Made by a program: the position numbers and the translations under genes. Below, piece by piece: positions 40,205 through 57,900 of a stretch of DNA of 64,000 nt. Source of the DNA: Anaerolineales bacterium. Lineage in GTDB: Bacteria > Chloroflexota > Anaerolineae > Anaerolineales > E44-bin32. How positions within the stretch are numbered: position 1 is the first letter of the stretch; each line of letters opens with the position of its first letter. Location of the stretch: positions 739 through 64,738 of the forward strand of contig DAOUEE010000198.1 of NCBI GenBank assembly GCA_034430695.1, in the 5' to 3' direction. The notes under the pieces are model-generated. The model searched no databases. It worked only from the letters and a program-made list of their open reading frames with translations, and was not told the DNA's origin.

Positions 40205-40988
40205 GATTTTTACCCAATACTCCGTCTGCAAGATAAGGTAGAACGGTCTCCACATCGCCGTGAATAACGACATCCGCACGTTCGTCGAGGTAAGTAGGCG
40301 TGTGGTTGACGATGATCAGTTTCGCCCCGGCATTTAGCGCCGGGATCGGTAGCGTGGCTGCGGGTACAACCTGGAGCGACGAACCGGCGATGATCATCAA
40401 TTCGCACTTCGCCAGGAGTCTTTCTGCGGATCGCACGACTTCGTAGGGCAGTTGTTCTCCGAGGAGGACGGCATTGGGCTTCAGGACGCCACCACACTTC
40501 ACACAGCGCGGGACTTCTCCGCTTTGGATGAAGGCTTCCATGATGCCATCTGTATCGTAGACTTCGTAGCAGGAGACACATGTCGCTTGACGCAGATGCC
40601 CGTGAAGTTCAAGGATGACGTGTGATCCCGCTCGGTGATGAAGTGCGTCGATGTTCTGCGTGATGACACCGTCCAGATAACCGGCTTCCTCGAGGCGCGC
40701 CAAAGCAACGTGAGCGGGGTTTGGTGTGGCGTCCCGGATTTGTTGGGCCAGAGGATGGATCCACTCGTAAAATTTTTGGGGATTGTGACGAAATACCATC
40801 AGCGAAGCGACTTCCATCGGATCGTAGCGTTTCCACAAACCGGAATGGGCGGAACGGAAATCCGGAATCCCCGAGGGCGTCGATATCCCTGCTCCGGTAA
40901 GCGCAACGGTATGTTTTGAGTTTTTAAGAAGCGAAATCGCCCTTTGGAGGAGACTCTCGAGATCATCAAGCTTCACGACGCGGCTCAA
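40197..40988 (-). CDS. cobB: NAD-dependent protein deacylase (sirtuin)
   Basis: GAGISTPSGIPDFRS, TQNIDALH, ELHG, CVSC/CVKC zinc ribbon, GSSLQVVPAA. Confidence 0.93.
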   Translation of the reverse strand: MSRVVKLDDLESLLQRAISLLKNSKHTVALTGAGISTPSGIPDFRSAHSGLWKRYDPMEVASLMVFRHNPQKFYEWIHPLAQQIRDATPNPAHVALARLEEAGYLDGVITQNIDALHHRAGSHVILELHGHLRQATCVSCYEVYDTDGIMEAFIQSGEVPRCVKCGGVLKPNAVLLGEQLPYEVVRSAERLLAKCELMIIAGSSLQVVPAATLPIPALNAGAKLIIVNHTPTYLDERADVVIHGDVETVLPYLADGVLGKNHE

Positions 40989-42133
40989 CTCACGACACGT
41001 TTGAGGCGCTGGGAAAGAAACTTCGACAGCTTGCGTATCTGATCAGAGACGAGACTATCCGGGTGAGCAAGAAGCAGGGGCGTCGAACCGCTGGAAGCCT
41101 GGTAGGCCAAATCCGGTGCGGGGGAAACGATCCCGGCCAACTCGAGACCGATCTCGGTTTCAACCTGGCGCCAAGGAATTTGCATGCTCGAACGAACCCG
41201 GTTGATCAATGCGAGATAAATTTTATCGCGCTGGATCCCGTCGCTGGACAGTTCCTGAAGCAGCGATCTTCCCAGGATATTGGACGGAAAAACCGGTTCC
41301 ACCACGAGGATCAGGCAATCGCACATCTTCAATATCGGTTTGACGTACGGGCGCATCGAGCAGCCGAGGTCGAGTACGACGGTGGTGCACATCGAAGCCA
41401 GATTGGTGACGACCGCTTCCATCTGCGCTACGGATTGCTCCAGTTCCACGTTGTTTGGCGCGTGTGAGGCGACCAGCATGCGAATCCCCGAGGCGTGGCT
41501 GATGATTTCGCTCTCGACGGATCGCAAGTGGATGTCCTTCAGCGATCGATTCAGTAAATTGGAAAGGCCGGAGGCGTTCCCAATTCCAAGTTCGAGAGCG
41601 ACCGTTCCGTGACCGGGATTGAGTTCTGCAAAAATCACATCGTCGCCTTCTTGCTGCAGTGCAATGCTGGTGTTCAAGGTGAGCGTTGACGTCCCGATGC
41701 CGCCGCGTGCCCCCAAAAAGGCGATGGTTCTGGCTCTCTCGGGTTTGGCGATTTGGGTTTGAGTTGCTCGACCGAGAACGGCTTTGATGTGCGCCGTCAG
41801 TTCAGCCGGGTGGGTTGGTTTGGTCAAATAATCGTCGACGCCCGCCTCGAATCCGGCGACTTTATCGTCGACCATGGTCTTAGCAGTGAACATGATGATT
41901 GGGATGTGGGCCAGGGCAGGATCGGCTCGCAATCGACGTGTGACTTCATACCCATCCATGTCCGGCATCATGATGTCGAGCAGGATGAGCTGCGGTGTCT
42001 CTTCTTTGGCCCGCTCGATACCCAGAGTTCCGTTGCTCGCGACAACGATCTCGTAGCCGTGGCGTTCGAGCATCAAGCCAACGAGTTTTAGGGTATCGAC
42101 GTCATCATCGATGATGAGTATCTTTTCTGTCAT
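40985..42133 (-). CDS. Receiver plus CpaE/MinD-like ATPase-fold protein (second CpaE-like gene)
   Basis: Intact receiver (IIDDD, LLDIMMPDMDG, YLTKP); degenerate Walker A GARGGIGTST; VVLDLG; LINRV. Confidence 0.85.
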   Translation of the reverse strand: MTEKILIIDDDVDTLKLVGLMLERHGYEIVVASNGTLGIERAKEETPQLILLDIMMPDMDGYEVTRRLRADPALAHIPIIMFTAKTMVDDKVAGFEAGVDDYLTKPTHPAELTAHIKAVLGRATQTQIAKPERARTIAFLGARGGIGTSTLTLNTSIALQQEGDDVIFAELNPGHGTVALELGIGNASGLSNLLNRSLKDIHLRSVESEIISHASGIRMLVASHAPNNVELEQSVAQMEAVVTNLASMCTTVVLDLGCSMRPYVKPILKMCDCLILVVEPVFPSNILGRSLLQELSSDGIQRDKIYLALINRVRSSMQIPWRQVETEIGLELAGIVSPAPDLAYQASSGSTPLLLAHPDSLVSDQIRKLSKFLSQRLKRVVS

Positions 42134-42281
42134 TCCGGGCGCTCCATTTGGGATGATTTCCCGGTCGATGGCAGTCTAGCATAAAGCGATACGAGGGGCA
42201 AGAAGTGGACCGGGTCTCCGTTTGGAATCGCGAATCCACGATGCTATAATGCTCGAAGTCTTTATTTCCTCCGAGGCGCAG

Positions 42282-45200
42282 ATGTCCGTTGATTGGTGGG
42301 GTTTCGACCAGAGTCTGAATTTCAACTTTCCCTCATCAGCGCTCGGTTATCTGGCCGGTGGGACCGCGCTGGCATTGTTGATCGTATTCTACATCCGTTT
42401 TCCAGCGCATTTCCCGGCAACATCGAAGAAAAATAGGGAACGATTTTGGGTGCGTCTTCCTTTTCTGCTCATCGCTGCCCCCATCCTGAGCCTCACGTTC
42501 TTACTGCGGTTTCACGTACCGGGAACGGAAATGCTGGCCTTCGTTCCACAAGAATTGCGCGGACCTGCCGTGGCTGTCTTTGGTGCGATCCCCTGGCTGT
42601 TCGCCGGGGGAGTGTTGGGAATCCGTGAAGCGATCGTCGTCGGGGTTGTCGCCGGTGTGGCGCGCGCTGGTTTCGAAACGTTCAGTGTACTTACCCCCAT
42701 ATTTATGGGCTTGCAGGCAGGTATCGCCGCCTGGTTGATGCGGCGGGATGATGGCGGATTACAGGGGCGATTGCTTCGCAGCCCGTTCATCAGCGGCCTC
42801 GCCAGTGGTGCAGTGTATGCGCTACTTCGAGGCATCGGCATATTCGTCACGATACAAGGTGACTCGTATCGCAGGATAGATATCACTCTTTCCCTGCTCG
42901 GCCTGACGGCATTGGCCACGCTGATCGAAGTGACGATCGGCGGCGCATTTTGTGAACTGATAAAGCGCCAGGCGGCGAATATCTGGTATGTACCGAGACG
43001 AGATAAGACCCGGGGATTTGGTCAATCGCTGGCCGTGCGTTTAAGCGTAGTCCTGCTGTTTTCCGGTTTTATCGCCAGCAGCGTGATTTTGATGGGAGAT
43101 TGGGTCTCGGCAGATCAATCCGCACGGGAAATTCTCACCGAACACATGCAGCAGACCGCCAATCAGGCCAGCGGAATCATCCCCTTTTTCGTCCACACCG
43201 GTAGAGAATACAGCCGCCAGCTGGCGGACGATCTTGCCGTCCGTGTCGGTTCCGGCTCCTGGACGGAAGAACCGTTGGACGCGCTTCTTCGCGCTTATAC
43301 CTTTTTCGAAAGCCTGGCAGTGTACGACCGTGAACTCGGTCTGGAAGTCACCTATCCTGCAGCGACGGAGCCGCCGGGGTATTCCCAGGGCTTTCAGGCC
43401 AACTTGACTGCGGCGTTGAGGGGCGTACCGTCCGAGACGATCGAGTTCGGTTCTGCTGCGGGGACAGGTACCCGCATGGCATTCATCACGCCGGTTCTTC
43501 CTGATGAAAATGGCCAGGCGGTCGGAGTCGTGGTTGGCTGGTCTTCCCTCGAATCCAACCTCATCTTGACGCCATTGGTACAGAGTTTCGACCAGTTTTC
43601 ATACGGATCGGCGTTCGTCACCGACGAGCTGGGCGAAGTCCTGATTCACCCCGAAAGCGACCTGACAAATCGCCAGTTCAATCTTCGTCCTGAAACGAGC
43701 GGAACGGTAAGAATCGAATTTACACAAGACGGTACACGGCAGTTGGTCTACGTCGAACCGATCGAAGAGTACTCCTGGCACGTCGTCGTCATCGTACCGC
43801 TGCGCGAGGTCCATCGTCAGGCGCTCCAGATCACCTTGCGTCTCGGAAGCTGGCTGGTCGTGGTGGGGGTCGTTCTTCTCTGCGCGGTCTTTCTCATCAG
43901 TCATCGTTTGACTCGTCCCCTGCGGAAGATGGCTCAGGTGGCCCAGTCGATCGCGCGCGGAAATCTCGATCAGCCCGTGAAGGCAGACGGTGAGGATGAG
44001 ATTGGCCGCTTCGCTTCCTCGTTCGAGATGATGCGCCGCAGCCTGAAAGCCAGGCTGGACGAGATGGGACTGCTGCTTGACGTCAGTCAACGGCTTTCCA
44101 CCAGCTTCGACCTTACGGATATGCTGCAGCCGATACTGGACGGTATCCGGCAGATCGCCGCTGCCGATCACGTTCGTATCGCGCTGGCTGCTGCGTACGA
44201 TGAAGCCCGATTTACGGGCTTTTCCGCGGGCGACGATCCAGGCAACTGGGCGGCGTTGGACCCGCAGATTCTGGCGCTTTCAAGCCACAGAGGTCGTTTC
44301 GTGCTGGAGAATCCGACGCGCGCCGGTGCGGTTCTCGATCTCACAAATTTGAGCGAGCCGATCGAAACGCTGGCTGCCATGCCGATGAGACACGAGGATG
44401 AATTCGTCGGCGTTCTCTGGCTCGGTCATCGATCGCCTTACGTGATGACTCCGGATGCCCTCAACCTGCTGTCGATCCTATCCGACCAACTGGCAGTGGC
44501 GATAACCAAGGTTCGTTTGTATCAACGTGCGGAGCACGAGCGCATGCGTCTCGTTACCGTTCTGGAAGGCACGCCGGCGGCGGTGATGATGGTCGACTCT
44601 GTGGGCCGGGTTTCCCTTCTCAATCCTGCAGCCGCGAGTCTTTTCAGCGCCGGCGAGCGGGAAAGTCTCGGGAAACCCGTTGCGGATGTCGTCCAGAATC
44701 CGGATCTGCGTACGCTCCTGCTGGATGATGGAGTGACAGAACACGCGACGGAAATCGAAATGGATTCCGGGCGCATCATGTTTGCCTCGGTGACCGACAT
44801 ACGGTACGAGGATGGTGTTCCTGCCGGAAGGATCTGTGTTTTGTGGGACGTATCCCATTACAAAAAGCTCGACGCGTTGAAATCGGAGTTCGTTTCCACG
44901 GTCAGCCAGGACCTGCGTGCGCCGCTCACGTTGATGCGCGGGTATGCAACCATGCTGAGTATGGTCGGGGACGTAAACGAACAGCAGGAGGAGTTTTTAC
45001 AGAAGATACTCTCGAGCATCGACCACATGAGTAAGTTGGTCGACAACTTGCTGGATCTGGGCCGGATCGAGGCCGGCATGGGGTTGAACGTTTCGAGCAT
45101 CCGCATCGAGGCGTTGATCAAGGATGTGGTCGATGCCTACCGCCCCCAGGCGGTGAGCAAACGCGTCGCCATCGAGGTCGAATTGGTAGACGGAATGCAA

Positions 45201-45593
45201 CCCGTCGACGCCGATCCCGGGCTGCTGCGCCAGGCGATATCGAATCTGGTAGACAACGCGTTGAAGTATACGCCCGCGAACGGAAGAGTCGTCGTACGTG
45301 CGGAACAAAGCGAGGAAGATCAAATCATCTCCGTGGCGGATACCGGAGTTGGCATTGCGCCGGCCGATCAGGCACGCTTGTTCGAAAAGTTCTACCGCAC
45401 CAGCGCTACGGACGCGCTCCACGAGAAGGGGTTGGGGCTGGGCCTGGCGATCGTTAAATCGATCGTCGAGCAACACAACGGATGGATTCAGGTCGAGAGT
45501 AGACTCGGACAAGGGAGTACATTCACGATCAGCGTACCGCTGAAATCCGCCGGCGCCGGCGAGGGGAAGAGAACCACGATCAATTTCAGATGA
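42282..45593 (+). CDS. Large membrane sensor kinase (TM bundle, Cache-like, HAMP, GAF, PAS, HisKA, HATPase) with His-to-Gln in the H-box
   Basis: HAMP (LTRPLRKM...GNLDQPV...DEIG), PAS, H-box SQDLRAPL, intact N/G1/F/G2 boxes. Probable start 42282 after GAGG. Confidence 0.88.
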   Translation: MSVDWWGFDQSLNFNFPSSALGYLAGGTALALLIVFYIRFPAHFPATSKKNRERFWVRLPFLLIAAPILSLTFLLRFHVPGTEMLAFVPQELRGPAVAVFGAIPWLFAGGVLGIREAIVVGVVAGVARAGFETFSVLTPIFMGLQAGIAAWLMRRDDGGLQGRLLRSPFISGLASGAVYALLRGIGIFVTIQGDSYRRIDITLSLLGLTALATLIEVTIGGAFCELIKRQAANIWYVPRRDKTRGFGQSLAVRLSVVLLFSGFIASSVILMGDWVSADQSAREILTEHMQQTANQASGIIPFFVHTGREYSRQLADDLAVRVGSGSWTEEPLDALLRAYTFFESLAVYDRELGLEVTYPAATEPPGYSQGFQANLTAALRGVPSETIEFGSAAGTGTRMAFITPVLPDENGQAVGVVVGWSSLESNLILTPLVQSFDQFSYGSAFVTDELGEVLIHPESDLTNRQFNLRPETSGTVRIEFTQDGTRQLVYVEPIEEYSWHVVVIVPLREVHRQALQITLRLGSWLVVVGVVLLCAVFLISHRLTRPLRKMAQVAQSIARGNLDQPVKADGEDEIGRFASSFEMMRRSLKARLDEMGLLLDVSQRLSTSFDLTDMLQPILDGIRQIAAADHVRIALAAAYDEARFTGFSAGDDPGNWAALDPQILALSSHRGRFVLENPTRAGAVLDLTNLSEPIETLAAMPMRHEDEFVGVLWLGHRSPYVMTPDALNLLSILSDQLAVAITKVRLYQRAEHERMRLVTVLEGTPAAVMMVDSVGRVSLLNPAAASLFSAGERESLGKPVADVVQNPDLRTLLLDDGVTEHATEIEMDSGRIMFASVTDIRYEDGVPAGRICVLWDVSHYKKLDALKSEFVSTVSQDLRAPLTLMRGYATMLSMVGDVNEQQEEFLQKILSSIDHMSKLVDNLLDLGRIEAGMGLNVSSIRIEALIKDVVDAYRPQAVSKRVAIEVELVDGMQPVDADPGLLRQAISNLVDNALKYTPANGRVVVRAEQSEEDQIISVADTGVGIAPADQARLFEKFYRTSATDALHEKGLGLGLAIVKSIVEQHNGWIQVESRLGQGSTFTISVPLKSAGAGEGKRTTINFR

Positions 45594-49414: not shown

Positions 49415-49533
49415 AGCTTGAAGATCTTCCTCGAACTATCTTCCCGTGAGTGATTTCTGACAGCTGCAATCTAGTTGCATGACTCAAAAGCAGCCCTTTT
49501 CGGGTGTGATATACTCTCGTTTTTGGAGGAGTG

Positions 49534-51003
49534 ATGCGACGAGGCGGTCCCGATTACCTACGCTGGATCTCGATTGGCTTGTTGCTGGCGGCGGTTGTTT
49601 TTTTCTTCTTCGAACTAATCGCCTTCAGCCGCCAGCGGGCACGTCTTCCGGAAGGACTTTCCGTCGGTGGTGTTCCCGTCGGTGGACTTTCCCAAATCGA
49701 AGCGGTCGAACGCATCCTGCAGACCTACAGTTCGCCTGTCGAGCTGCACTACAACGATCAGATCATTCTCGTGTCGCCTGCAAGCGTCGGGTTCCGCCTG
49801 GATACCGAAGTCATGTTGGCGGCAGCCGAATCGATGCGCACCGGCGATGATTTCTGGTCCGGCTTCATGGATTTTCTGTGGAGTCGTCCGGGGGAAGAAG
49901 CGGCGATACCCTTGCGCGCTGAGTATTCCGTTTCGCAGCTCGAATTGGTTCTGGCTGATATCGCTGCCCGATACGACGAGCCTCCGTATCTTGCCGAGCC
50001 CATTCCGGGAACGCCCAATTTCAATCCCGGAAAGCCGGGACGCGTTCTCGACATCGACCGGGCACAACGCTTGATCGGGGACATCTTGATGCTGCCCCAT
50101 TCCCGGGTCGTAAACCTGCCGGTTCTGGAGGACGTACCCCCGAGACCGACATTGGGCACGCTCGAGATCTTGATTAAACAGATCGTGGACGCCACGGATT
50201 TCACCGGCCTCACAGATTTGTTTCTGGTGAATCTACGGTCGGGTGAAGAACTGCATATCGTTTACCTGGACGGTGAAGACATCCCTGCGGAACCGGATGT
50301 TTCTTTCGGCGCAGCCTCCACTTTCAAGATCGGAATCATGACGGCATACTTCATTGAATTCGACGAACCCTTCAGTGAAGAAGCGGACGATCATATGTTT
50401 GACATGATCACACGCTCGGGCAACGAATCTTCAGATTGGCTGATGGAGCAGATTGGCGGCGACCTCGGTCCGCTCTCTATCACGGACACCCTTCAAACGT
50501 TGGGTCTGAAAAACACCTTTTCAGGCGGCTTTTATCATCCAGGAGCACCACTCCTGCGTACGTACAACACGCCTGCAAACCAGCGCACGGACATCAACAC
50601 CCGACCGGATATATACACGCAGACCACCCCGTCCGACATCGGGATGTTGTTGATGGACATCTATCATTGTGAGAACGGCGGCGGTGCGCTGCTCGCCGTC
50701 TACCCCGATCGAGTTACGCCGCAGGAATGCTCCCATATGATCGATCTGCTCGCTCAAAACAAAATCGGGAGTTTGATCGAAGCGGGTGTACCGGACGGCA
50801 CTCGGGTGGCACACAAGCACGGCTGGCCGAGCTCGCCTTTCGACATGATCGGAGATGCCGGCATCGTCTACACACCGGGCGGGGATTACGTGTTTTCATT
50901 GTTCTTGTTTCAGGATCAGGAAATGTTTTGGGACCCGACGTCGAAGATGTTCGCCGATATCTCCCGCGCCGTGTACAATTATTTCAATCCCCCCGTCGAG
51001 TGA
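49534..51003 (+). CDS. Membrane-anchored serine hydrolase (class A beta-lactamase/PBP-like) with a PG-binding (VanW/YoaR-like) N-domain
   Basis: N-terminal TM, VGGVPVGGLSQIEA, AASTFK (SxxK), SGN, HKHG. Extended -10 TGATATACT at 49507 and SD GGAGG. Confidence 0.82.
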   Translation: MRRGGPDYLRWISIGLLLAAVVFFFFELIAFSRQRARLPEGLSVGGVPVGGLSQIEAVERILQTYSSPVELHYNDQIILVSPASVGFRLDTEVMLAAAESMRTGDDFWSGFMDFLWSRPGEEAAIPLRAEYSVSQLELVLADIAARYDEPPYLAEPIPGTPNFNPGKPGRVLDIDRAQRLIGDILMLPHSRVVNLPVLEDVPPRPTLGTLEILIKQIVDATDFTGLTDLFLVNLRSGEELHIVYLDGEDIPAEPDVSFGAASTFKIGIMTAYFIEFDEPFSEEADDHMFDMITRSGNESSDWLMEQIGGDLGPLSITDTLQTLGLKNTFSGGFYHPGAPLLRTYNTPANQRTDINTRPDIYTQTTPSDIGMLLMDIYHCENGGGALLAVYPDRVTPQECSHMIDLLAQNKIGSLIEAGVPDGTRVAHKHGWPSSPFDMIGDAGIVYTPGGDYVFSLFLFQDQEMFWDPTSKMFADISRAVYNYFNPPVE

Positions 51004-51049: not shown

Positions 51050-51080
51050 AAATAACTAGGGCGCAGAAGTCTCTGCGCCC
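51050..51080 (-). terminator. Intrinsic (probably bidirectional) terminator
   Basis: GGGCGCAGA-agtc-TCTGCGCCC followed on the minus strand by TAGTTATTTTT. Confidence 0.75.
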
Positions 51081-51140
51081 CGATATGTTAAATTGTTAGT
51101 CTTGAAATTTCCTACACGTTATCTTTCTACCGATATGGAT

Positions 51141-51344
51141 TTAATATTCATCCTCTCTTTCGTAGTCGTAATCATCGTCGTATTCGAGCTCCTCGTCATC
51201 GAAGGCCCAATCCAATTCCAACGGTGAAACGCCAACGACCATCAAATATGCTCCGCATTGTGGACAACTGACTTGCTGTCCTTCACTGGGGTCTCGTCCA
51301 ACCGTGATCTTTGCATCACATTCTGGACAAAATGCGTGTGTCAT
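51141..51344 (-). CDS. LysW-like zinc-ribbon protein with a non-canonical acidic tail (67 aa)
   Basis: CPECDAKI...GQQVSCPQCGAYLMVVGVSPLELD matches the LysW core; tail WAFDDEELEYDDDYDYEREDEY instead of EDWGE. SD AGGAGG. Confidence 0.85.
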   Translation of the reverse strand: MTHAFCPECDAKITVGRDPSEGQQVSCPQCGAYLMVVGVSPLELDWAFDDEELEYDDDYDYEREDEY

Positions 51345-51378
51345 GGAGAACCTCCTGACAAAAATGCGTTTCGCCAGC

Positions 51379-51421
51379 ATCATACGCATAAGGTGTAGAA
51401 ATTGTGTCTAACTCGTGTGAA
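51379..51421 (-). promoter_or_regulatory. Triple 11-bp-period direct repeat replacing -35, plus -10 TATGAT
   Basis: Minus strand TTCACAC-gagt-TAGACAC-aatt-TCTACAC, 8 nt, TATGAT, upstream of the LysW-like gene. Confidence 0.6.
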
Positions 51422-51461
51422 AAATCCGTATAAAATGGGCATAATATATATCAAAATGATA

Positions 51462-52148
51462 TTAATGGGTGCCGATATCGAAGAGATAGCCCATGCCGGG
51501 AATGGTATGTATGAATTCGGGCGACGAGGGATCGCGCTCGATTTTCGCACGTACTCGGCTGACGAGGCCGCGAACCAATTCGCGGTTCCCTTTTTCGCTG
51601 TACCCCCACACCCGCTCGACGAGGACGTCGGTCGGGATTGCTAATCCTCGATTGGTCATGAGGACGTAGAGTAGTTGGAATTCCAACTGTGTGAGCCGCT
51701 GTGCTTCCTTTCCATGCACCCGAACGCTGCGTGTAGAAGGATTGAGGGCGATCGTTTCCAGGTCCAACATCGGTGTGGCCAGCAAGGGTGCCACACGTGC
51801 TCTGCGAAGCAGTGCGTGGGTATAGGCGGTCAACAAGCGAGGATGGATCGGCATGGGCAAAGCGAGGTCGGCGCCGGCCGTGAGTAGGTCCACGGTTTGT
51901 GTGTTGGATAGCGTTTCTGCGATTACGATAATGGGGACCTCACTCACGCCGCGAATGGATTTTAAATCGCGGATCGTGCGTTCGATACCCGTGCTGACGA
52001 TCACCAACAGCGCCGCCGGCGCTTCCATCCAGTTGCCAATCACTTCTTTGGCTTCTGTCTTCTGTACGATTTTCGTCCCCACCTGGCGCAGGATGAAGGC
52101 GATCATGTCTCGTTCCTGTGCGTCTTGACTGATAACAATCGTTTCCAT
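51462..52148 (-). CDS. OmpR-family regulator with an atypical (non-phosphorylatable-looking) receiver
   Basis: wHTH LTQLEFQLLYVLM...LVERVWG...VSRVRAKIE...IHTIPGMGY. Receiver reads VISQD, LLVIVS and LALPMP, lacking the acidic pair, phospho-Asp and Lys. Confidence 0.88.
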   Translation of the reverse strand: METIVISQDAQERDMIAFILRQVGTKIVQKTEAKEVIGNWMEAPAALLVIVSTGIERTIRDLKSIRGVSEVPIIVIAETLSNTQTVDLLTAGADLALPMPIHPRLLTAYTHALLRRARVAPLLATPMLDLETIALNPSTRSVRVHGKEAQRLTQLEFQLLYVLMTNRGLAIPTDVLVERVWGYSEKGNRELVRGLVSRVRAKIERDPSSPEFIHTIPGMGYLFDIGTH

Positions 52149-52186: not shown

Positions 52187-52837
52187 CTAAATCAAACTCA
52201 GCGCGTTGACCAGATATCGAACGCCCAGGTAGGTCATATAGCCGCCGGTGATCATGATCAAAAACCGGTATGCCCGCTCGCTGAACCAGCGTTGGCCGCT
52301 GCTCGTTGCCGTGGCGAGTGCTGTATCCCAGGCGAAATCTGCACTGATGTGGCCCACGTAAAACGCAGCGACTGCTGCCGCACTGATCGCTTTCGCTTGG
52401 GTGAGGTACCCCGCTGCAACGGTGACCCACCAAATGTACCAGAATGGATTGGCCAGCGTCGTCATTATTCCCAGGGCGACGAGAGCCCGGGCCGATCCCG
52501 TCGAATGGGTTCGACCGGGCTGCGGAAACTGCACATCTTTCTTCCACACGGTGAGAATGTAACTGCTTCCGATCCAGAACAAGATCAAACTTCCGCCGAT
52601 CGAAATCGCCACAAGCGCCATCGTGGTTTGCATCACAACGGTAAGCCCGAAGCAGATCAGAATAAGAATTGCGAGTTCCAAAGCGGAGTGTCCGAAGGCG
52701 ATGAGCGGCCCTGAGCGCCAACCTTTGCGGGGCGCCTCACTCAGAATCGCTGCCGTTACCGGGCCGGGGGAGATCACCGCGGCGAAGGATACGAGCAGGG
52801 AGAATTGAAAAATGGAAAAGACGTCGTCTGCGGCCAT
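52187..52837 (-). CDS. LysE-family exporter
   Basis: AVISPGP, GPLIAFGH, TTLANP; hydrophobic. Confidence 0.85.
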   Translation of the reverse strand: MAADDVFSIFQFSLLVSFAAVISPGPVTAAILSEAPRKGWRSGPLIAFGHSALELAILILICFGLTVVMQTTMALVAISIGGSLILFWIGSSYILTVWKKDVQFPQPGRTHSTGSARALVALGIMTTLANPFWYIWWVTVAAGYLTQAKAISAAAVAAFYVGHISADFAWDTALATATSSGQRWFSERAYRFLIMITGGYMTYLGVRYLVNALSLI

Positions 52838-52899: not shown

Positions 52900-53844
52900 C
52901 TACGAATTTTCCTTGATAAAGCGCGTGAGGTCCGGAAAAATCAGCTTATCGAGACTGTCATTTCCCAACGCGGCGTGATTGACGACTTCAAAATTGCGGT
53001 GAACTTCACGCAGCGCACGCACTTGCCAGGCGGGAGGCGATTGCGAGAAGACGCCGAGACAAACCGTTCTTTTACCGGGGATGAGCAGCAATGTCGAACC
53101 ATCATCGATTTGCGTGGCGAACATACGCGATGTCTTTCCTTCTTCTTCGGCGGAACCGAAAGTTCCCAACAATCCCATCGCGTCTTCGGCAGGTTCGGGC
53201 ATGTCCCCTTCGACAAATATTCGTTCTCGGGAATTGATCTTGTACAGTCCCACTGAGTGGCAGGTGGCCTCGTTGAGCTGCATCAGGTAGCTGGTCTTCC
53301 CCTCTTCCAGCACAACCCGCCAACGGTCGCTTTCCGGATGCATTTTACTCATGCGCAGCGCCACTTCACGCTGCTGCATGTAATGACGCCGCACCGCCCG
53401 GTATTGGGATGCGTTAATTCTGCCCTGTTGATAATCTTGTTCAAGCCGGTTGATTTTTTGTTCGAGTGCGGCGAGGCGCTGCTTTAGATCCTGCGGTAAA
53501 TCATCATCGGCGGGTGCGTCTTCTTCGATCGCAGGTTCGCTGATCGGATCCGTTGTGACGACGTCTGGAGGTAAGGGGTGGATTGTGGAAGGTTCTTCGT
53601 CTATGAAGGGCGCCGCTTCTTCGCCTTCCATCTTGGAGACGCGTTGTTCCCATTCACGAAGGAGTTCCCGGGCGGCTCTCAGTTGTCCTTCGCTGATCGA
53701 CCCGTCGCAGAATGCGATCGCCGCGGAGAGGAATTTCTCTCGCGCACGCTCGAGCCAATCCAACGCGTCTTGGTATTCTGCGTTTTCTCCCCCCGAAGCG
53801 GCTCGTTTCGCTTTCTTTTCGGTCTTCTGCGCCTTTTCCGTCAT
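52900..53844 (-). CDS. Hypothetical protein: two SHOCT-like helical motifs, acidic Pro linker, alpha/beta C-terminal domain
   Basis: AFCDGSISEGQL and DYQQGRINASQY repeats; C-terminal beta-beta-alpha-beta-beta-beta-alpha pattern. Start uncertain (53844 or 53883). Confidence 0.7.
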   Translation of the reverse strand: MTEKAQKTEKKAKRAASGGENAEYQDALDWLERAREKFLSAAIAFCDGSISEGQLRAARELLREWEQRVSKMEGEEAAPFIDEEPSTIHPLPPDVVTTDPISEPAIEEDAPADDDLPQDLKQRLAALEQKINRLEQDYQQGRINASQYRAVRRHYMQQREVALRMSKMHPESDRWRVVLEEGKTSYLMQLNEATCHSVGLYKINSRERIFVEGDMPEPAEDAMGLLGTFGSAEEEGKTSRMFATQIDDGSTLLLIPGKRTVCLGVFSQSPPAWQVRALREVHRNFEVVNHAALGNDSLDKLIFPDLTRFIKENS

Positions 53845-54064
53845 GGCGCTTATAATGGTATCCGAAGCGCCTCCCATACGCAACCATCATAGCATTTGGG
53901 TGGTGAAATGTGTCAGAGGACGGTTGTACCATGACCGAAAGTAGCTCTATGACGGAAGGTCAGGGATGCGGTATACTCAACGCTGGCATTTTACACGGTT
54001 GTCGATTTTTTTTGTCTATCCAGCAGAAATTGCGAGACGAAAAACGGATCGGAGGGAGTGGTTG

Positions 54065-55233: not shown

Positions 55234-56019
55234 CTACTTCGACTTCACGAGTGTGCCTGGTTTTGCCCCCAAGAGCGCATCCTCGATCGACCCGGGTGTC
55301 TCAGCCGAAAATATTCGCACTTCAATTTGTGGGCTCAGACTGGCGATGGCCAACGCTGCTTCCACTTTCCCGCGCATGCCGCCGGTTACGTCGGTTGCCT
55401 GCGTAATTTCCATGCCGATCTTGCTCAGGTCTTTTGCTGTTACCGAAGACAAGATCTTCTTCGACTTCGGGAAATCGGCATATACGCCGGATTCGATACC
55501 TGCGATGAGAACGCGCGATGGGTGTAGATGCTGCGCCAGATAAGAAAAGACGGTCTCCGTGGAAACGATCGCCGCGCCTCGTTCGCGATCGAAGGCGACG
55601 TCGCCATAAATGATTGGCAGTAAGCCCGCTTCGACTGCCTGTGCGATGGGCTGGTGGGCCATTTCCTTTATCTCCCCGGCAGCGCTGATAACGCTTGCAG
55701 AAGGAGGAAAAGCCAGTGCAGGCAGCTTTTCGTTCAGGAAAGCATCGACTACGAAACGGTTCAGACGTTGAGCCGCCGCCCATACTTCGGCAAAACCCAG
55801 CCATTCAGCGGGTGTCGAAGCGCCGCGATTCGTGGCGTATCGCGCTGCTGCTACGTGTCCGAACGATCCTGACCCGTGGCCTATAAGAAGACGCAGGTTG
55901 GGAATTTTCTGCCGCGCTCGGGCGATTTCCATCGCCGTGCGTTCCAGGATGAGGTACCTGACCGTCTGCGCTTGGTCTTTTTCCGTGATCAACGAGCCAC
56001 CCAATTTGAGGAAGATCAT
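55234..56019 (-). CDS. ipk: Isopentenyl phosphate kinase (amino-acid-kinase fold)
   Basis: LKLGGSLIT, GHGSGSFGH with the IPK signature His, YGDV, DVTGGMRGK. Downstream of mvk. Confidence 0.9.
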   Translation of the reverse strand: MIFLKLGGSLITEKDQAQTVRYLILERTAMEIARARQKIPNLRLLIGHGSGSFGHVAAARYATNRGASTPAEWLGFAEVWAAAQRLNRFVVDAFLNEKLPALAFPPSASVISAAGEIKEMAHQPIAQAVEAGLLPIIYGDVAFDRERGAAIVSTETVFSYLAQHLHPSRVLIAGIESGVYADFPKSKKILSSVTAKDLSKIGMEITQATDVTGGMRGKVEAALAIASLSPQIEVRIFSAETPGSIEDALLGAKPGTLVKSK

Positions 56020-56021
56020 GG

Positions 56022-56954
56022 TTATACCTTCGTCATCCGTGTCCAAACCGCTCCGGCGGCGTGTAAGGCTTCTGCGACGGCCTCGCCGGCGGCAGGTCGG
56101 ATGAGTACAACGATGATACCACCAACACCGGCTCCAGATAACTTCGCGCCACAGGCGCCGCGATCTCGTGCCGTAGAAAGCAGTTTTTCGATCGTCTTGG
56201 AGCTGACGCTCAAAGCTTCTAATTTTTCCTGATTCTGGTCCATCAGCCTGCCCAATGCAGAAACGTCCCCATTCGCGATTGCTGACCGGGCGCTTTGGGT
56301 GATTTGACCGATCTCTTGAAAGATTGCGTCAAACGACGTCCGATCCCGTTTCCAGGCCTGTCGTACGCTGGCGACGATCTCACCGGTATTCGAGGGCAGA
56401 CCTGTATCGGCAAGGATGAAGCTGAATTCTGCTCCGATCGAAAGTCGTTCCGGCTGGCGCCCGCGGATGAAATATATCGGCTGGTCATAAACGATGACCG
56501 TGTTGTCGATTCCCGAAGGCGTGCCGTGGTGGATTTTTTCCACTTCGTAAACCAACTCCGATTGGCGTGACAGCTCGAGTGGGTGATCGAAATGCCGGCA
56601 GAGCGCGCGCAAGACCGCCGTCGAGACTGCGGCGCCCGAGCCGAGCCCGGAAGCGACGGGAATCTGCGCTGAGATGCGTATTTCGATCGCCGGAAATGAA
56701 CGAACGTGGAGTTCTTCCAGCGCCAACTGGGTGATTTTACGCAGCGGGTTACGCCTGTCGGCTTCGTGTAGCCACATATCGAAATCGATATCCGGGGCGA
56801 TGAGGTGGACACGGCCTTGTGGTTGATCCGGCAGCTGGCGTATCTGCGCGTTGGCGCGCATTTGACGCAAAGGGAATGCAATCGCCGGTTGTCCGTAGAC
56901 GACCGCATGTTCTCCAAAAAGAATGAATTTACCTGAAGCGCTTGCCCGCGTCAT
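56022..56954 (-). CDS. mvk: Mevalonate kinase (GHMP)
   Basis: GKFILFGEHAVVYGQPAIA, PVASGLGSGAA, HGTPSGIDN, GAKLSGAGVGG. Confidence 0.93.
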   Translation of the reverse strand: MTRASASGKFILFGEHAVVYGQPAIAFPLRQMRANAQIRQLPDQPQGRVHLIAPDIDFDMWLHEADRRNPLRKITQLALEELHVRSFPAIEIRISAQIPVASGLGSGAAVSTAVLRALCRHFDHPLELSRQSELVYEVEKIHHGTPSGIDNTVIVYDQPIYFIRGRQPERLSIGAEFSFILADTGLPSNTGEIVASVRQAWKRDRTSFDAIFQEIGQITQSARSAIANGDVSALGRLMDQNQEKLEALSVSSKTIEKLLSTARDRGACGAKLSGAGVGGIIVVLIRPAAGEAVAEALHAAGAVWTRMTKV

Positions 56955-57823
56955 GATCCCAGATAGAGAATTCCTGCGGATGAAATTCCCCAGAGGACGA
57001 TTGTCGCCAGGAGGGGCCAATCGGAAAAAACGAGTTCTTCCGGTGCACCGCCGGCGTCTTCGATGTTGACCAGATAGAGATAGCGGAACACTCCGTAGAT
57101 GACGAAGGGGATAGTCAACATCATGAGGTGGTTGGTGGGGAGATTTTCGGCCGAGAACGTATAGAGCGAATAGGCGATGATCGTAGTGCTTGAAACGATG
57201 ATGATCAATTGGTCGAGAAAGGTTACGGTGTAGCGGTCAAAAACCCGCCGATGGGAGTTCGCGCCCTCGGCCAGCATGACCAGTTCCGAGCGGCGTTTGC
57301 CCAGTCCGATGAAAAGAGCCAGCAGGCTGGTGCAGACGTAAAGCCACGGGGAGAAACGTTCGGTAGTGATCAAAGCCACACCGGCACCGACTCGCAGCAC
57401 GAAACCCGAGGCGAGCACGAGTACATCGATGATGGGTACGTGTTTTAGCCAAAAAGAATAGAAGAAATTCATGATCAAATAGATCGAGATGACGATCCCG
57501 AAAGATATGTCGAGCGCGAAGCCCCCACCGAGCGCCACGACGAGGAGAATGGCGGCGGTAATTCGGCCAGCAGTCAACGAGAGCTGACCCGAGGCGAGCG
57601 GTCGATAGCGTTTCGTTGGATGAAGGCGATCCTGCTCCAGATCCGCGAGATCGTTGATGAAATATACTGCGCCGGCGCCAACACTGAGCAGGAAAAAGCC
57701 GGCGATGGTCGTCAGGAGCGGTTCTAGGTCGAAAATCTGCTTGTCAAAAATGAGTGCGGCGAAGATGAAACCGTTTTTCGGCCATTGTCTTGGGCGCATT
57801 GTTTTCAGGATGGATTTAATCAT
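56951..57823 (-). CDS. ubiA: UbiA-family polyprenyl-phosphate phosphoribosyltransferase (DPPR synthase-like)
   Basis: MRPRQWPKN, YFINDLADLEQDRLHPTKRYRP, YSFWLKH, GKRRSE. ATGA overlap with mvk; extended -10 TGCTATCAT 7 nt before the ATG. Confidence 0.88.
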   Translation of the reverse strand: MIKSILKTMRPRQWPKNGFIFAALIFDKQIFDLEPLLTTIAGFFLLSVGAGAVYFINDLADLEQDRLHPTKRYRPLASGQLSLTAGRITAAILLVVALGGGFALDISFGIVISIYLIMNFFYSFWLKHVPIIDVLVLASGFVLRVGAGVALITTERFSPWLYVCTSLLALFIGLGKRRSELVMLAEGANSHRRVFDRYTVTFLDQLIIIVSSTTIIAYSLYTFSAENLPTNHLMMLTIPFVIYGVFRYLYLVNIEDAGGAPEELVFSDWPLLATIVLWGISSAGILYLGS

Positions 57824-57900
57824 GGCTGCGATGATAGCAGGAACCAAATGCACAAGCAAGTAATTGCGAAGATGAATGATAACTTGTGTACAATCTGGAT

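What the first reader, a model, noticed from the sequence alone, without database searches (positions are those of the whole stretch)
51379..52148. Atypical OmpR regulator with a matching triple direct repeat in front of the LysW-like gene
Seen: the receiver lacks the acidic pair, phospho-Asp and Lys, while the wHTH is intact. Immediately downstream, TTCACAC/TAGACAC/TCTACAC repeat with an 11-bp period and end 8 nt before TATGAT, with no -35. Known: PhoB/PhoP-type proteins bind 11-bp-period repeats (TT[A/T/C]ACA in Bacillus) that replace the -35. Inference: a phosphorylation-independent activator drives the LysW-like gene, whose acidic tail could feed back on the regulator. This would be a compact, apparently undescribed two-gene circuit.
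Basis: partly seen in the sequence, partly recalled or inferred. Interest (0 to 1): 0.68.

Follow-up and report, generated by a model that had tools for sequence, protein, structure and literature searches.

The report
Phosphorylation-blind regulator driving LysW-like gene
A DNA-binding regulator that has lost its phosphorylation site sits beside a small zinc-ribbon gene whose promoter carries six evenly spaced copies of a likely binding site, and this arrangement recurs in over a hundred uncultured Chloroflexi sequences, with no description found in the literature searched.

Summary
On the minus strand, the 228-aa OmpR/PhoB-type regulator (51462-52148) keeps a receiver fold and a winged helix but lacks the acidic pair, the phospho-Asp, Thr and Lys. 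The phospho-Asp position is V/L/I in all 118 relatives. The three repeats belong to a six-unit, 11-bp-phased array (51454-51393). It ends 8 nt before TATGAT, and no -35 sits at normal spacing. The pair regulator then LysW-like gene recurs in 71 of 80 genome loci, mostly Anaerolineae MAGs. Their intergenic regions show a strong lag-11 signal (z=12.5) and a TTTnnAC repeat. The proximal AC lies exactly 12 nt from TANNNT in 21 of 28 loci. Best reading: a phosphorylation-independent activator binds PhoB-style boxes and drives the LysW-like gene. This rests on comparative evidence only. The feedback idea through the acidic tail has no support, because 43 of 68 regulator-linked homologues lack an acidic tail. 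Elsewhere the LysW-like gene sits with a Ddl-like ATP-grasp ligase and lysine 2,3-aminomutase, which suggests a carrier or acceptor role. It is not canonical LysW. I rate it a new variant of known kinds, of moderate interest.

The parts
51462..52148 (-). Atypical OmpR/PhoB-family regulator, 228 aa: aspartate-less pseudo-receiver plus winged helix-turn-helix
   Evidence: Pfam Trans_reg_C 69.2 bits, Response_reg not detected. Alignment to MtrA/RegX3 gives S7, Q8, V49, A77, M99 at the DD/D/T/K sites. Family-wide loss of Asp in 118/118. AF2 pLDDT 85.8 with an intact (beta-alpha)5 fold plus wHTH. Foldseek top hits are KdpE, RpaA and MtrA.
51393..51454 (-). Array of six 11-bp-phased direct-repeat units, or three 22-bp boxes. 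Unit starts: 51454 TTGATAT, 51443 TATGCCC (weak), 51432 TATACGG, 51421 TTCACAC, 51410 TAGACAC, 51399 TCTACAC. Inferred binding sites of the regulator.
   Evidence: Sequence. It is the only phased triple, and holds the only strong pair, in the 64-kb window. Exact pattern: 1 observed, 0 in 100 shuffles. Homologous intergenic regions: lag-11 z=12.5, and 49 adjacent site pairs at exactly 11 bp versus 0.13 in shuffles. Footprint among close relatives.
51379..51384 (-). -10-like hexamer TATGAT. There is no -35 at 16-18 bp. The proximal repeat's AC (51396-51395) starts 12 nt upstream.
   Evidence: Sequence. No sigma-70 pair on the minus strand. GCGTATGATGC is conserved in relatives. The AC-12-TANNNT geometry holds in 21 of 28 loci.
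51351..51356 (-). Shine-Dalgarno AGGAGG, 6 nt before the ATG at 51344-51342
   Evidence: Sequence; conserved in relatives. It supports the 67-aa start over the 80/82-aa ORF.
51141..51344 (-). LysW-like zinc-ribbon protein, 67 aa: CxxC...CxxC ribbon, PLELDWAF motif, disordered acidic/aromatic tail ending in Tyr
   Evidence: Pfam Zn_ribbon_LysW 48.5 bits. PDB LysW E=4.8e-7. AF2 plus Foldseek: LysW rmsd 0.7-1.0 A, tail pLDDT about 54. Below the NCBIfam LysW cut-offs.
51058..51081 (-). Intrinsic-terminator-like hairpin (10 pairs plus T-run) ending the LysW-like transcript
52187..52837 (-). LysE-type amino-acid exporter gene, 38 nt upstream of the regulator. Syntenic in this clade and possibly co-transcribed with the regulator.
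   Evidence: Pfam LysE 102 bits. Synteny cluster 13 in 10 loci.
52900..53883 (-). Conserved 327-aa protein of unknown function at the head of the syntenic block
   Evidence: No Pfam or NCBIfam hit. Synteny cluster 9 in 14 loci.

Best explanation
The regulator is a phosphorylation-independent (aspartate-less) OmpR/PhoB-family transcription factor with no kinase gene adjacent.

Inferred mechanism: it binds head-to-tail, as OmpR/PhoB proteins do, to the six 11-bp-phased TTTnnAC-type units (three 22-bp boxes) that fill the intergenic region directly behind its own stop codon. The promoter-proximal unit lies where a -35 would be, 12 nt from a -10-like TATGAT. The bound regulator would therefore recruit RNA polymerase and activate a short monocistronic transcript for the LysW-like protein, which ends at the hairpin at 51081-51058.

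The LysW-like product is a LysW-fold zinc ribbon with a family-specific PLELDWAF motif and a disordered acidic/aromatic tail. By genomic association in other genomes (Ddl-like ATP-grasp ligase, lysine 2,3-aminomutase), it most likely acts as a small carrier or acceptor protein of an ATP-grasp/beta-lysine-type pathway. It is not the lysine-biosynthetic LysW.

Shown: the anatomy, the loss of catalytic residues, the folds, conservation of the pair, and the periodicity, orientation and fixed geometry of the array.

Inferred: binding, activation, the signal that controls the regulator (unknown), and the biochemical role of the LysW-like protein.
For: - Receiver degenerate but folded.
- The recognition-helix residues R193, G194, L195, S197, R198, R200 and K202 are invariant in 118 relatives, which matches a conserved DNA motif.
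- Pair conserved in 71/80 genome loci, down to 41% regulator identity, and in 38/61 metagenome loci found from the LysW-like side.
- Model-free lag-11/22/33 autocorrelation in 57 intergenic regions, window excluded: z = 12.5, 8.4, 5.4.
- 167 PWM sites with 49 adjacent spacings of exactly 11 bp, versus 0.13 in shuffles. No 11-bp spacings upstream of the regulator, in coding sequence or on the opposite strand.
- Proximal AC exactly 12 nt from TANNNT in 21/28 loci.
- No sigma-70 -35/-10 pair on that strand; terminator after the gene.
- The array also follows the regulator when the downstream gene is something else, and accompanies the LysW-like gene when no regulator is within 3.5 kb.
- LysW fold.
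- ATP-grasp and KamA linkage.
Against: - No experimental or transcript evidence was available.
- The PWM was seeded by eye and trained on the same set in which site density was counted. The spacing, the autocorrelation and the second (metagenome) set are independent of that training.
- Loci lacking an adjacent regulator still carry the array. This gave no clean negative control, and another OmpR-type protein could be the binder.
- This window holds no ATP-grasp or aminomutase gene, so the role proposed for the LysW-like protein is borrowed from other loci.
Confidence: 0.7

Rival explanations
1. The regulator and the LysW-like protein form a protein-protein feedback circuit. The small protein, through its acidic tail or its ribbon/ELDWAF motif, would bind the pseudo-receiver or the DNA-binding domain. 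It would replace phosphorylation as the on/off input.
For: - Tight adjacency of the two genes across about 100 loci.
- The pseudo-receiver keeps a conserved surface (W40, P44, G92-A93-D94, R116 invariant or nearly so) and has no known input.
- How pseudo-receivers are switched is an open question (PMC12632262).
Against: - 43 of 68 regulator-linked homologues have non-acidic tails.
- LysW-like genes with the same motif occur without any regulator within 3.5 kb, next to KamA and ATP-grasp genes.
- The regulator plus array sometimes fronts unrelated genes.
- No multimer prediction or co-evolution test could be run.
Confidence: 0.12
2. The repeats are bound by a different, kinase-controlled OmpR-family regulator, or they are phased T-tracts acting as an UP-like or curved-DNA element. 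On this view the adjacent atypical regulator is not the factor that acts on them.
For: - The array persists in 20 loci with no regulator nearby.
- TTTnnAC resembles generic OmpR/PhoP/RpaB-type half-sites (own knowledge).
- T-rich phasing could bend DNA.
Against: - The array is found directly behind this regulator in most loci, including loci where the target gene differs.
- An invariant AC, a strict orientation and a fixed 12-nt offset to the -10 are not expected of mere curvature.
- The recognition helix is invariant across the family.
- The nearest kinase in the window (42222-45593) lies next to its own receiver gene (40985-42133).
Confidence: 0.12
3. The regulator is a repressor or auto-regulator. 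The LysW-like gene would then be transcribed mainly by read-through from the LysE-regulator transcript.
For: - No terminator is predicted between the regulator and the LysW-like gene.
- The array starts 8 nt after the regulator's stop codon.
Against: - The sites lie upstream of and overlapping the -35 position, not over the -10 or the TSS.
- A conserved -10 without a -35 is the signature of an activator-dependent promoter.
- No array is found upstream of the regulator gene in 69 loci.
Confidence: 0.06

Closest known systems
PhoB and pho-box promoters of E. coli; PhoP TT(A/T/C)ACA repeats of B. subtilis (own knowledge)
   Same: - OmpR/PhoB wHTH regulator.
- Tandem direct repeats with an 11-bp period, organised as 22-bp boxes.
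- The boxes sit in place of a -35, at a fixed short distance from the -10, and several boxes are stacked upstream.
   Different: - The regulator cannot be phosphorylated (Val at the Asp site) and no kinase gene is adjacent.
- The repeat consensus is TTTnnAC(A/G), not CTGTCAT.
- The target is a LysW-like gene, not phosphate genes.
Atypical (phosphorylation-independent) OmpR/PhoB regulators: ChxR (Chlamydia), HP1043/HsrA (Helicobacter, 2hqr), GlnR (actinomycetes, 8hih), CosR, RitR (5u8m). Pseudo-receiver/ALR classification follows PMC12632262 and PMC4395418.
   Same: - Full-length REC plus wHTH fold with degenerate phospho-acceptor residues.
- No cognate kinase gene adjacent.
- ChxR is reported to bind a direct repeat (title cited within PMC12632262).
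- HP1043, RitR, GlnR and CosR all appear among the Foldseek hits.
   Different: - A separate family found here in MAGs labelled Anaerolineales, Ardenticatenaceae, Caldilineaceae and similar, at most 28% identical to any solved structure.
- All five catalytic positions are changed.
- No conserved Cys, unlike the RitR-type redox switch.
- Fixed genomic partnership with a LysW-like gene.
LysW/ArgW amino-group carrier protein with LysX (ATP-grasp) of the alpha-aminoadipate lysine pathway (3wwl, 3wwn, 5k2m)
   Same: - Same zinc-ribbon fold (rmsd 0.7-1.0 A, 42-43% identity over 43-48 aligned columns).
- Acidic, disordered C-terminal extension.
- In other loci the gene is followed by an ATP-grasp ligase.
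   Different: - No C-terminal EDWGE or terminal Glu; the tail ends ...EREDEY.
- Below the TIGR01206 and NF041070 cut-offs.
- The family-specific motif is PLELDWAF.
- The associated ligase is Ddl-type, not RimK/LysX-type, and comes with lysine 2,3-aminomutase, not LysZ/Y/J/K.
- No such enzymes are in this window.
AblA/AblB (lysine 2,3-aminomutase plus beta-lysine acetyltransferase) and the B. subtilis kamA-yod cluster (own knowledge)
   Same: In related loci the LysW-like gene is adjacent to an AblA-type aminomutase (TIGR03820, 533 bits against a cut-off of 525). In some loci a GNAT and a class-III-like aminotransferase are also present.
   Different: - A LysW-like protein and a Ddl-like ATP-grasp, often fused to a SAM methyltransferase, are part of the cluster.
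- None of these enzymes is present at this window's locus.

Membership tests
OmpR/PhoB-family response regulator | C-terminal winged helix-turn-helix (Trans_reg_C) | tested here: met
   Pfam PF00486 69.2 bits against a cut-off of 26.2, residues 150-223. Foldseek to the YycF DNA-binding domain gives TMt 0.88.
OmpR/PhoB-family response regulator | N-terminal (beta-alpha)5 receiver fold | tested here: met
   The AF2 model shows E2-6/H10-23/E26-30/H33-38/E47-52/H55-68/E73-78/H82-91/E95-99/H103-117 at pLDDT 83-97. Match to the MicA receiver: TMt 0.92, rmsd 1.5 A. The Pfam Response_reg model itself is not matched.
OmpR/PhoB-family response regulator (canonical, phosphorylatable) | Conserved DD, phospho-acceptor D, T/S and K | tested here: not met
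   S7, Q8, V49, A77 and M99 against MtrA. The Asp position is V/L/I in 118/118 relatives.
Atypical response regulator with aspartate-less pseudo-receiver (ALR; definition in PMC12632262) | Recognisable receiver that lacks the phosphorylatable Asp | tested here: met
Atypical response regulator with aspartate-less pseudo-receiver | Activity independent of phosphorylation | not testable with these tools
   Follows from the absence of the Asp, but needs biochemistry.
PhoB-type (pho-box-like) activator-dependent promoter | Tandem direct repeats with an 11-bp period | tested here: met
PhoB-type (pho-box-like) activator-dependent promoter | The box replaces the -35 at a fixed distance from a -10 | tested here: met
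   No -35/-10 pair on the minus strand. AC-12-TANNNT in 21/28 loci and in the window.
PhoB-type (pho-box-like) activator-dependent promoter | Binding by the regulator and regulator-dependent transcription | not testable with these tools
   No RNA data were available for this window. EMSA, footprinting or a reporter assay is needed.
LysW/ArgW amino-group carrier protein | LysW zinc-ribbon globular domain | tested here: met
   PF21344 48.5 bits against a cut-off of 27. 3wwl E=4.8e-7. Foldseek rmsd 0.7-1.0 A.
LysW/ArgW amino-group carrier protein | C-terminal EDWGE-type tail with a terminal Glu as attachment site (own knowledge of T. thermophilus LysW) | tested here: not met
   The tail is ...LELDWAFDDEELEYDDDYDYEREDEY and ends in Tyr.
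LysW/ArgW amino-group carrier protein | Scores above the curated equivalog cut-off | tested here: not met
   TIGR01206 33.3 against 53.2; NF041070 35.8 against 75.
LysW/ArgW amino-group carrier protein | Clustered with LysX/LysZ/LysY/LysJ/LysK | tested here: inconclusive
   Queries from the Ddl-like ATP-grasp found no such domain in the window; the only hit matches their methyltransferase part. The only AA_kinase-family gene (55234-56046) is isopentenyl phosphate kinase, 175 bits against a cut-off of 120. LysX/RimK-type, LysY, LysJ and LysK were not searched for explicitly, and the rest of the genome is unseen.

The most novel reading that the evidence does not exclude
The pseudo-receiver regulator and the LysW-like protein form a new kind of signalling pair. 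The small LysW-fold protein, unmodified or loaded by an ATP-grasp ligase with beta-lysine or a related amine, would dock on the aspartate-less receiver and set its activity. The state of a carrier protein would then replace phosphorylation as the regulatory input, closing a feedback loop on the carrier's own promoter.
Probability: 0.1. Interest if true: 0.85.

Novelty: new variant of a known kind. Interest (0 to 1): 0.55.

Why it matters
- How pseudo-receiver (aspartate-less) response regulators are switched is an acknowledged open question (PMC12632262).
- This family has 715 or more cluster representatives at E<=1e-10. It offers an unusually clean test case: one regulator, one well-defined array, one small target gene.
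- The comparative data already give a testable binding-site model: TTTnnAC, 11-bp phase, 12 nt to the -10.
- The LysW fold has so far been tied to the aminoadipate lysine/arginine pathways and a few secondary-metabolite routes.
- A large LysW-like family (3073 representatives at 50% identity) has an ELDWAF motif and diverse tails. Its links to a Ddl-type ATP-grasp and lysine 2,3-aminomutase point to an uncharacterised carrier-protein chemistry in Chloroflexi.
- If the regulator only switches on a small protein of unknown role, the finding is a solid but ordinary annotation.

Tried and rejected
1. Canonical LysW. Rejected: wrong C-terminus, below the equivalog cut-offs, no aminoadipate-pathway genes found nearby, and the AA_kinase nearby is isopentenyl phosphate kinase.
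2. The longer 80/82-aa ORF starting at 51389 or 51383. Rejected in favour of ATG 51344: AGGAGG lies 6 nt upstream, the start is conserved in relatives, and the longer ORF would begin inside the -10.
3. TAGACA as a -35. It matches TTGACA at 5 of 6 positions, but the spacer to TATGAT is 20 nt, outside 16-18, and the scan finds no pair.
4. Autoregulation through similar repeats upstream of the regulator. No phased sites in 69 loci.
5. Loci without a regulator as a negative control. This failed, because they carry the same array, so the regulator presumably acts in trans or lies beyond the 3.5-kb flanks.
6. Other arrays in the 64-kb window as further regulon members. None found.
7. Transcript evidence.
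8. Literature search for the pair, for 'LysW-like', and for amino-group carrier protein plus aminomutase. Nothing relevant.
9. A multimer model of regulator plus LysW-like protein. Not possible with the single-chain predictor, so not attempted.
10. A possible inverted repeat ATGCGT(N14)ACGCAT around the -10. It is not consistently conserved in relatives and was left aside.

Full report
**Anatomy.** Both genes lie on the minus strand.
- The regulator ORF is 51462-52148 (228 aa).
- A 117-nt intergenic region follows.
- The LysW-like ORF is best read from ATG 51344 to the stop at 51141 (67 aa). AGGAGG (51356-51351) precedes that ATG, and the start is conserved in relatives.
- A 10-pair hairpin with a T-run (51081-51058) follows the gene.
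- Upstream, a LysE-type exporter gene (52187-52837) ends 38 nt before the regulator. A conserved 327-aa gene without any family match (52900-53883) precedes it.

**The regulator.**
- Pfam finds only the C-terminal wHTH (69 bits) and not the receiver.
- Full-length alignments to MtrA and RegX3 run from residue 4 to 223. They place S7/Q8 at the acidic pair, V49 at the phospho-acceptor Asp, A77 at Thr and M99 at Lys.
- This holds across the family. In 118 relatives the Asp position is V (77), L (25) or I (16) and never Asp. The acidic pair is A/T/S followed by R/S/Q and others. Lys is replaced by R, L or M.
- The AF2 model (pLDDT 85.8) keeps an intact (beta-alpha)5 domain and a wHTH.
- Foldseek returns KdpE, RpaA, MtrA and PrrA. 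It also returns the known atypical regulators HP1043, RitR, GlnR and CosR.
- By the definitions in PMC12632262 this is an atypical response regulator with an aspartate-less pseudo-receiver.
- No kinase gene is adjacent. The nearest one (42222-45593) lies next to a REC-ParA-like gene (40985-42133) and is separated from the regulator by valyl-tRNA synthetase and other genes.

**The repeats.**
- The exact pattern occurs once in 64 kb and in none of 100 shuffles. This pattern was defined post hoc.
- The same phase continues upstream: TATACGG (51432), a weak unit (51443) and TTGATAT (51454). That makes six units, or three 22-bp boxes, filling the space from 8 nt after the regulator's stop codon to the -10.
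- A position matrix trained only on other genomes finds this as the sole triple-phased array in the window on either strand.
- No sigma-70-type -35/-10 pair exists on this strand. TAGACA resembles a -35 but sits 20 nt from the -10.

**Comparative evidence from the regulator side.** The regulator has 715 or more relatives at E<=1e-10. The named ones are from Anaerolineales.
- A scan of one genome per species gave 80 loci. They come from MAGs labelled Anaerolineales, Ardenticatenaceae, Caldilineaceae, Promineifilaceae and similar, with 41-91% regulator identity.
- In 71 of them a LysW-like ORF follows on the same strand, sometimes in two or three copies.
- In 57 of these intergenic regions, window excluded, base autocorrelation peaks at lag 11 (z=12.5), lag 22 (8.4) and lag 33 (5.4).
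- An iteratively built matrix gives the unit (A/T)TTT-N2-3-AC(A/G). It finds 167 sites in 71 regions. Of the adjacent spacings, 49 are exactly 11 bp, against 0.13 in shuffles.
- There are no 11-bp spacings in the 120 nt upstream of the regulator, in its coding sequence or on the opposite strand.
- The matrix is partly circular for site density. The spacing and the autocorrelation are not.
- The A of the proximal unit's AC lies exactly 12 nt from a TANNNT hexamer in 21 of 28 assessable loci, as in the window (51396 to 51384).
- The recognition-helix residues R193, G194, L195, S197, R198, R200 and K202 are invariant in the family. This fits a conserved DNA motif.

**Comparative evidence from the LysW-like side.** A second, independent set was found in metagenomes.
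- It shows the same signal: 27 paired regions with 20 spacings of 11 bp and lag-11 identity 0.35.
- Where the regulator is not followed by a LysW-like gene, the array and -10 are usually still there. They then front an EamA-type transporter (as read by eye), a ribbon-less acidic peptide or another small ORF.
- 23 of 61 LysW-like loci have no regulator within 3.5 kb, yet mostly keep the array.
- The array therefore travels with both partners. This fits a regulator/operator relation that can act in trans. It also means I had no clean negative control.

**The LysW-like protein.**
- It matches Pfam Zn_ribbon_LysW (48.5 bits) and T. thermophilus LysW (E=4.8e-7).
- The model superposes on LysW at 0.7-1.0 A over 46-48 aligned columns. 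The tail is disordered.
- It fails the LysW equivalog cut-offs and lacks the C-terminal EDWGE/Glu.
- The family signature is a ribbon plus P(L/I)ELDWA(F/Y), followed by a variable tail.
- A profile search finds 3073 cluster representatives at E<=1e-3, many with two or three tandem ribbons.
- Only 25 of 68 regulator-linked members have acidic tails.

**Linked enzymes elsewhere.**
- In 29 of 80 genome loci a Ddl-like ATP-grasp ligase follows the gene, often fused to a SAM methyltransferase.
- In 19 loci an AblA-type lysine 2,3-aminomutase is also present (TIGR03820, 533 bits against a cut-off of 525).
- The regulator-less metagenome loci have LysW-like, aminomutase, ATP-grasp, with an aminotransferase-like and a GNAT-like gene (as read by eye) upstream.
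- The window has none of these enzymes. Its one AA_kinase-family gene is isopentenyl phosphate kinase.
- Three assemblies (W31_54, SRP214966_co2_133, N6_271) each hold a close relative of this module. Each also holds a second, paralogous module with the ATP-grasp: L001/L040, L002/L033, L003/L050.

**Interpretation.** The best-supported model (about 0.7) is a phosphorylation-independent OmpR/PhoB-type activator. It would occupy pho-box-like 22-bp boxes that replace the -35 of the LysW-like promoter.
- The architecture matches PhoB/PhoP-type promoters (own knowledge). The regulator class matches ChxR, HP1043 and GlnR-type atypical regulators.
- The input signal is unknown.
The tail is not conserved, and the small protein has its own enzymatic associations. 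A ribbon- or motif-mediated interaction is not excluded (about 0.1).
- The LysE neighbour, the lysine aminomutase association and the LysW fold together hint at a lysine or basic-amine theme. This is inference only.

**Novelty.** Each component is of a known kind. What I could not find in the literature searched is this combination:
- the fixed pairing of an aspartate-less OmpR regulator with a LysW-like gene;
- the defined operator model;
- the link of this LysW-like family to a Ddl-type ATP-grasp and an aminomutase.

I rate it a new variant of a known kind, with interest 0.55.

Noticed in passing
L015, L016, L020, L023-L026, L036, L037, L041 and others (genome loci); L108, L112, L116, L127, L140, L149, L158 (metagenome loci): There is a recurrent cluster of LysW-like gene(s), a Ddl-like ATP-grasp ligase (often fused to a SAM methyltransferase) and an AblA-type lysine 2,3-aminomutase. 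In regulator-less loci an aminotransferase-like and a GNAT-like gene (as read by eye) lie upstream. It looks like an undescribed carrier-protein/beta-lysine pathway.
   Followed up: partly
L038:969-1133 (+): Downstream of a regulator homologue, behind the same repeat array and -10, lies a 54-codon ORF. It encodes only an acidic Asp/Trp-rich peptide (MMSELELYLLFGGPFDDDDDD...) and has no zinc ribbon.
   Followed up: no
L029:4761-5975, L045:3745-4713; L060:4802-5020, L080:4781-5038: In these lineages the regulator plus array fronts other genes: an EamA/DMT-like transporter (as read by eye) or an unrelated 70-85-aa protein. The operator has therefore been re-used for other targets.
   Followed up: partly
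P0147-P0169 and others; P0170 (1052 aa, 15 matched stretches): Many LysW-like family members carry two or three tandem ribbons in one polypeptide, some with basic rather than acidic tails. One 1052-aa protein has 15 ribbon-like stretches.
   Followed up: no
window 52900-53883 (-): This 327-aa protein has no Pfam or NCBIfam match. It is syntenic upstream of LysE and the regulator in 14 loci.
   Followed up: partly
L001/L040, L002/L033, L003/L050, L005/L019: The same MAG carries two paralogous regulator plus LysW-like modules. In three of the four pairs (L001/L040, L002/L033, L003/L050) one is an acidic-tail module with the unknown/LysE synteny. In all four pairs the other is a non-acidic-tail module followed by the methyltransferase-ATP-grasp fusion.
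   Followed up: partly
window 40985-42133 (-) and 42222-45593 (+): A divergent pair: a canonical receiver fused to a ParA/BcsQ-like ATPase, and a large dCache-HAMP-GAF-PAS histidine kinase. It is unrelated to the finding but is the nearest kinase.
   Followed up: no
window 55234-57859 (-): Isopentenyl phosphate kinase, mevalonate kinase and a UbiA-family prenyltransferase lie in a row, as in the alternative mevalonate pathway. The AA_kinase-family gene could be mistaken for LysZ.
   Followed up: partly
window 51364-51389 (-): A 6-bp inverted repeat, ATGCGT (51389-51384) and ACGCAT (51369-51364), brackets the -10 and the expected start site. It is only partly conserved in close relatives.
   Followed up: no
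window 49531-51003 (+): A 490-aa protein with a class-A beta-lactamase-like (Beta-lactamase2) domain converges on the LysW-like gene and shares the terminator region. It scores far below the curated beta-lactamase cut-offs.
   Followed up: no
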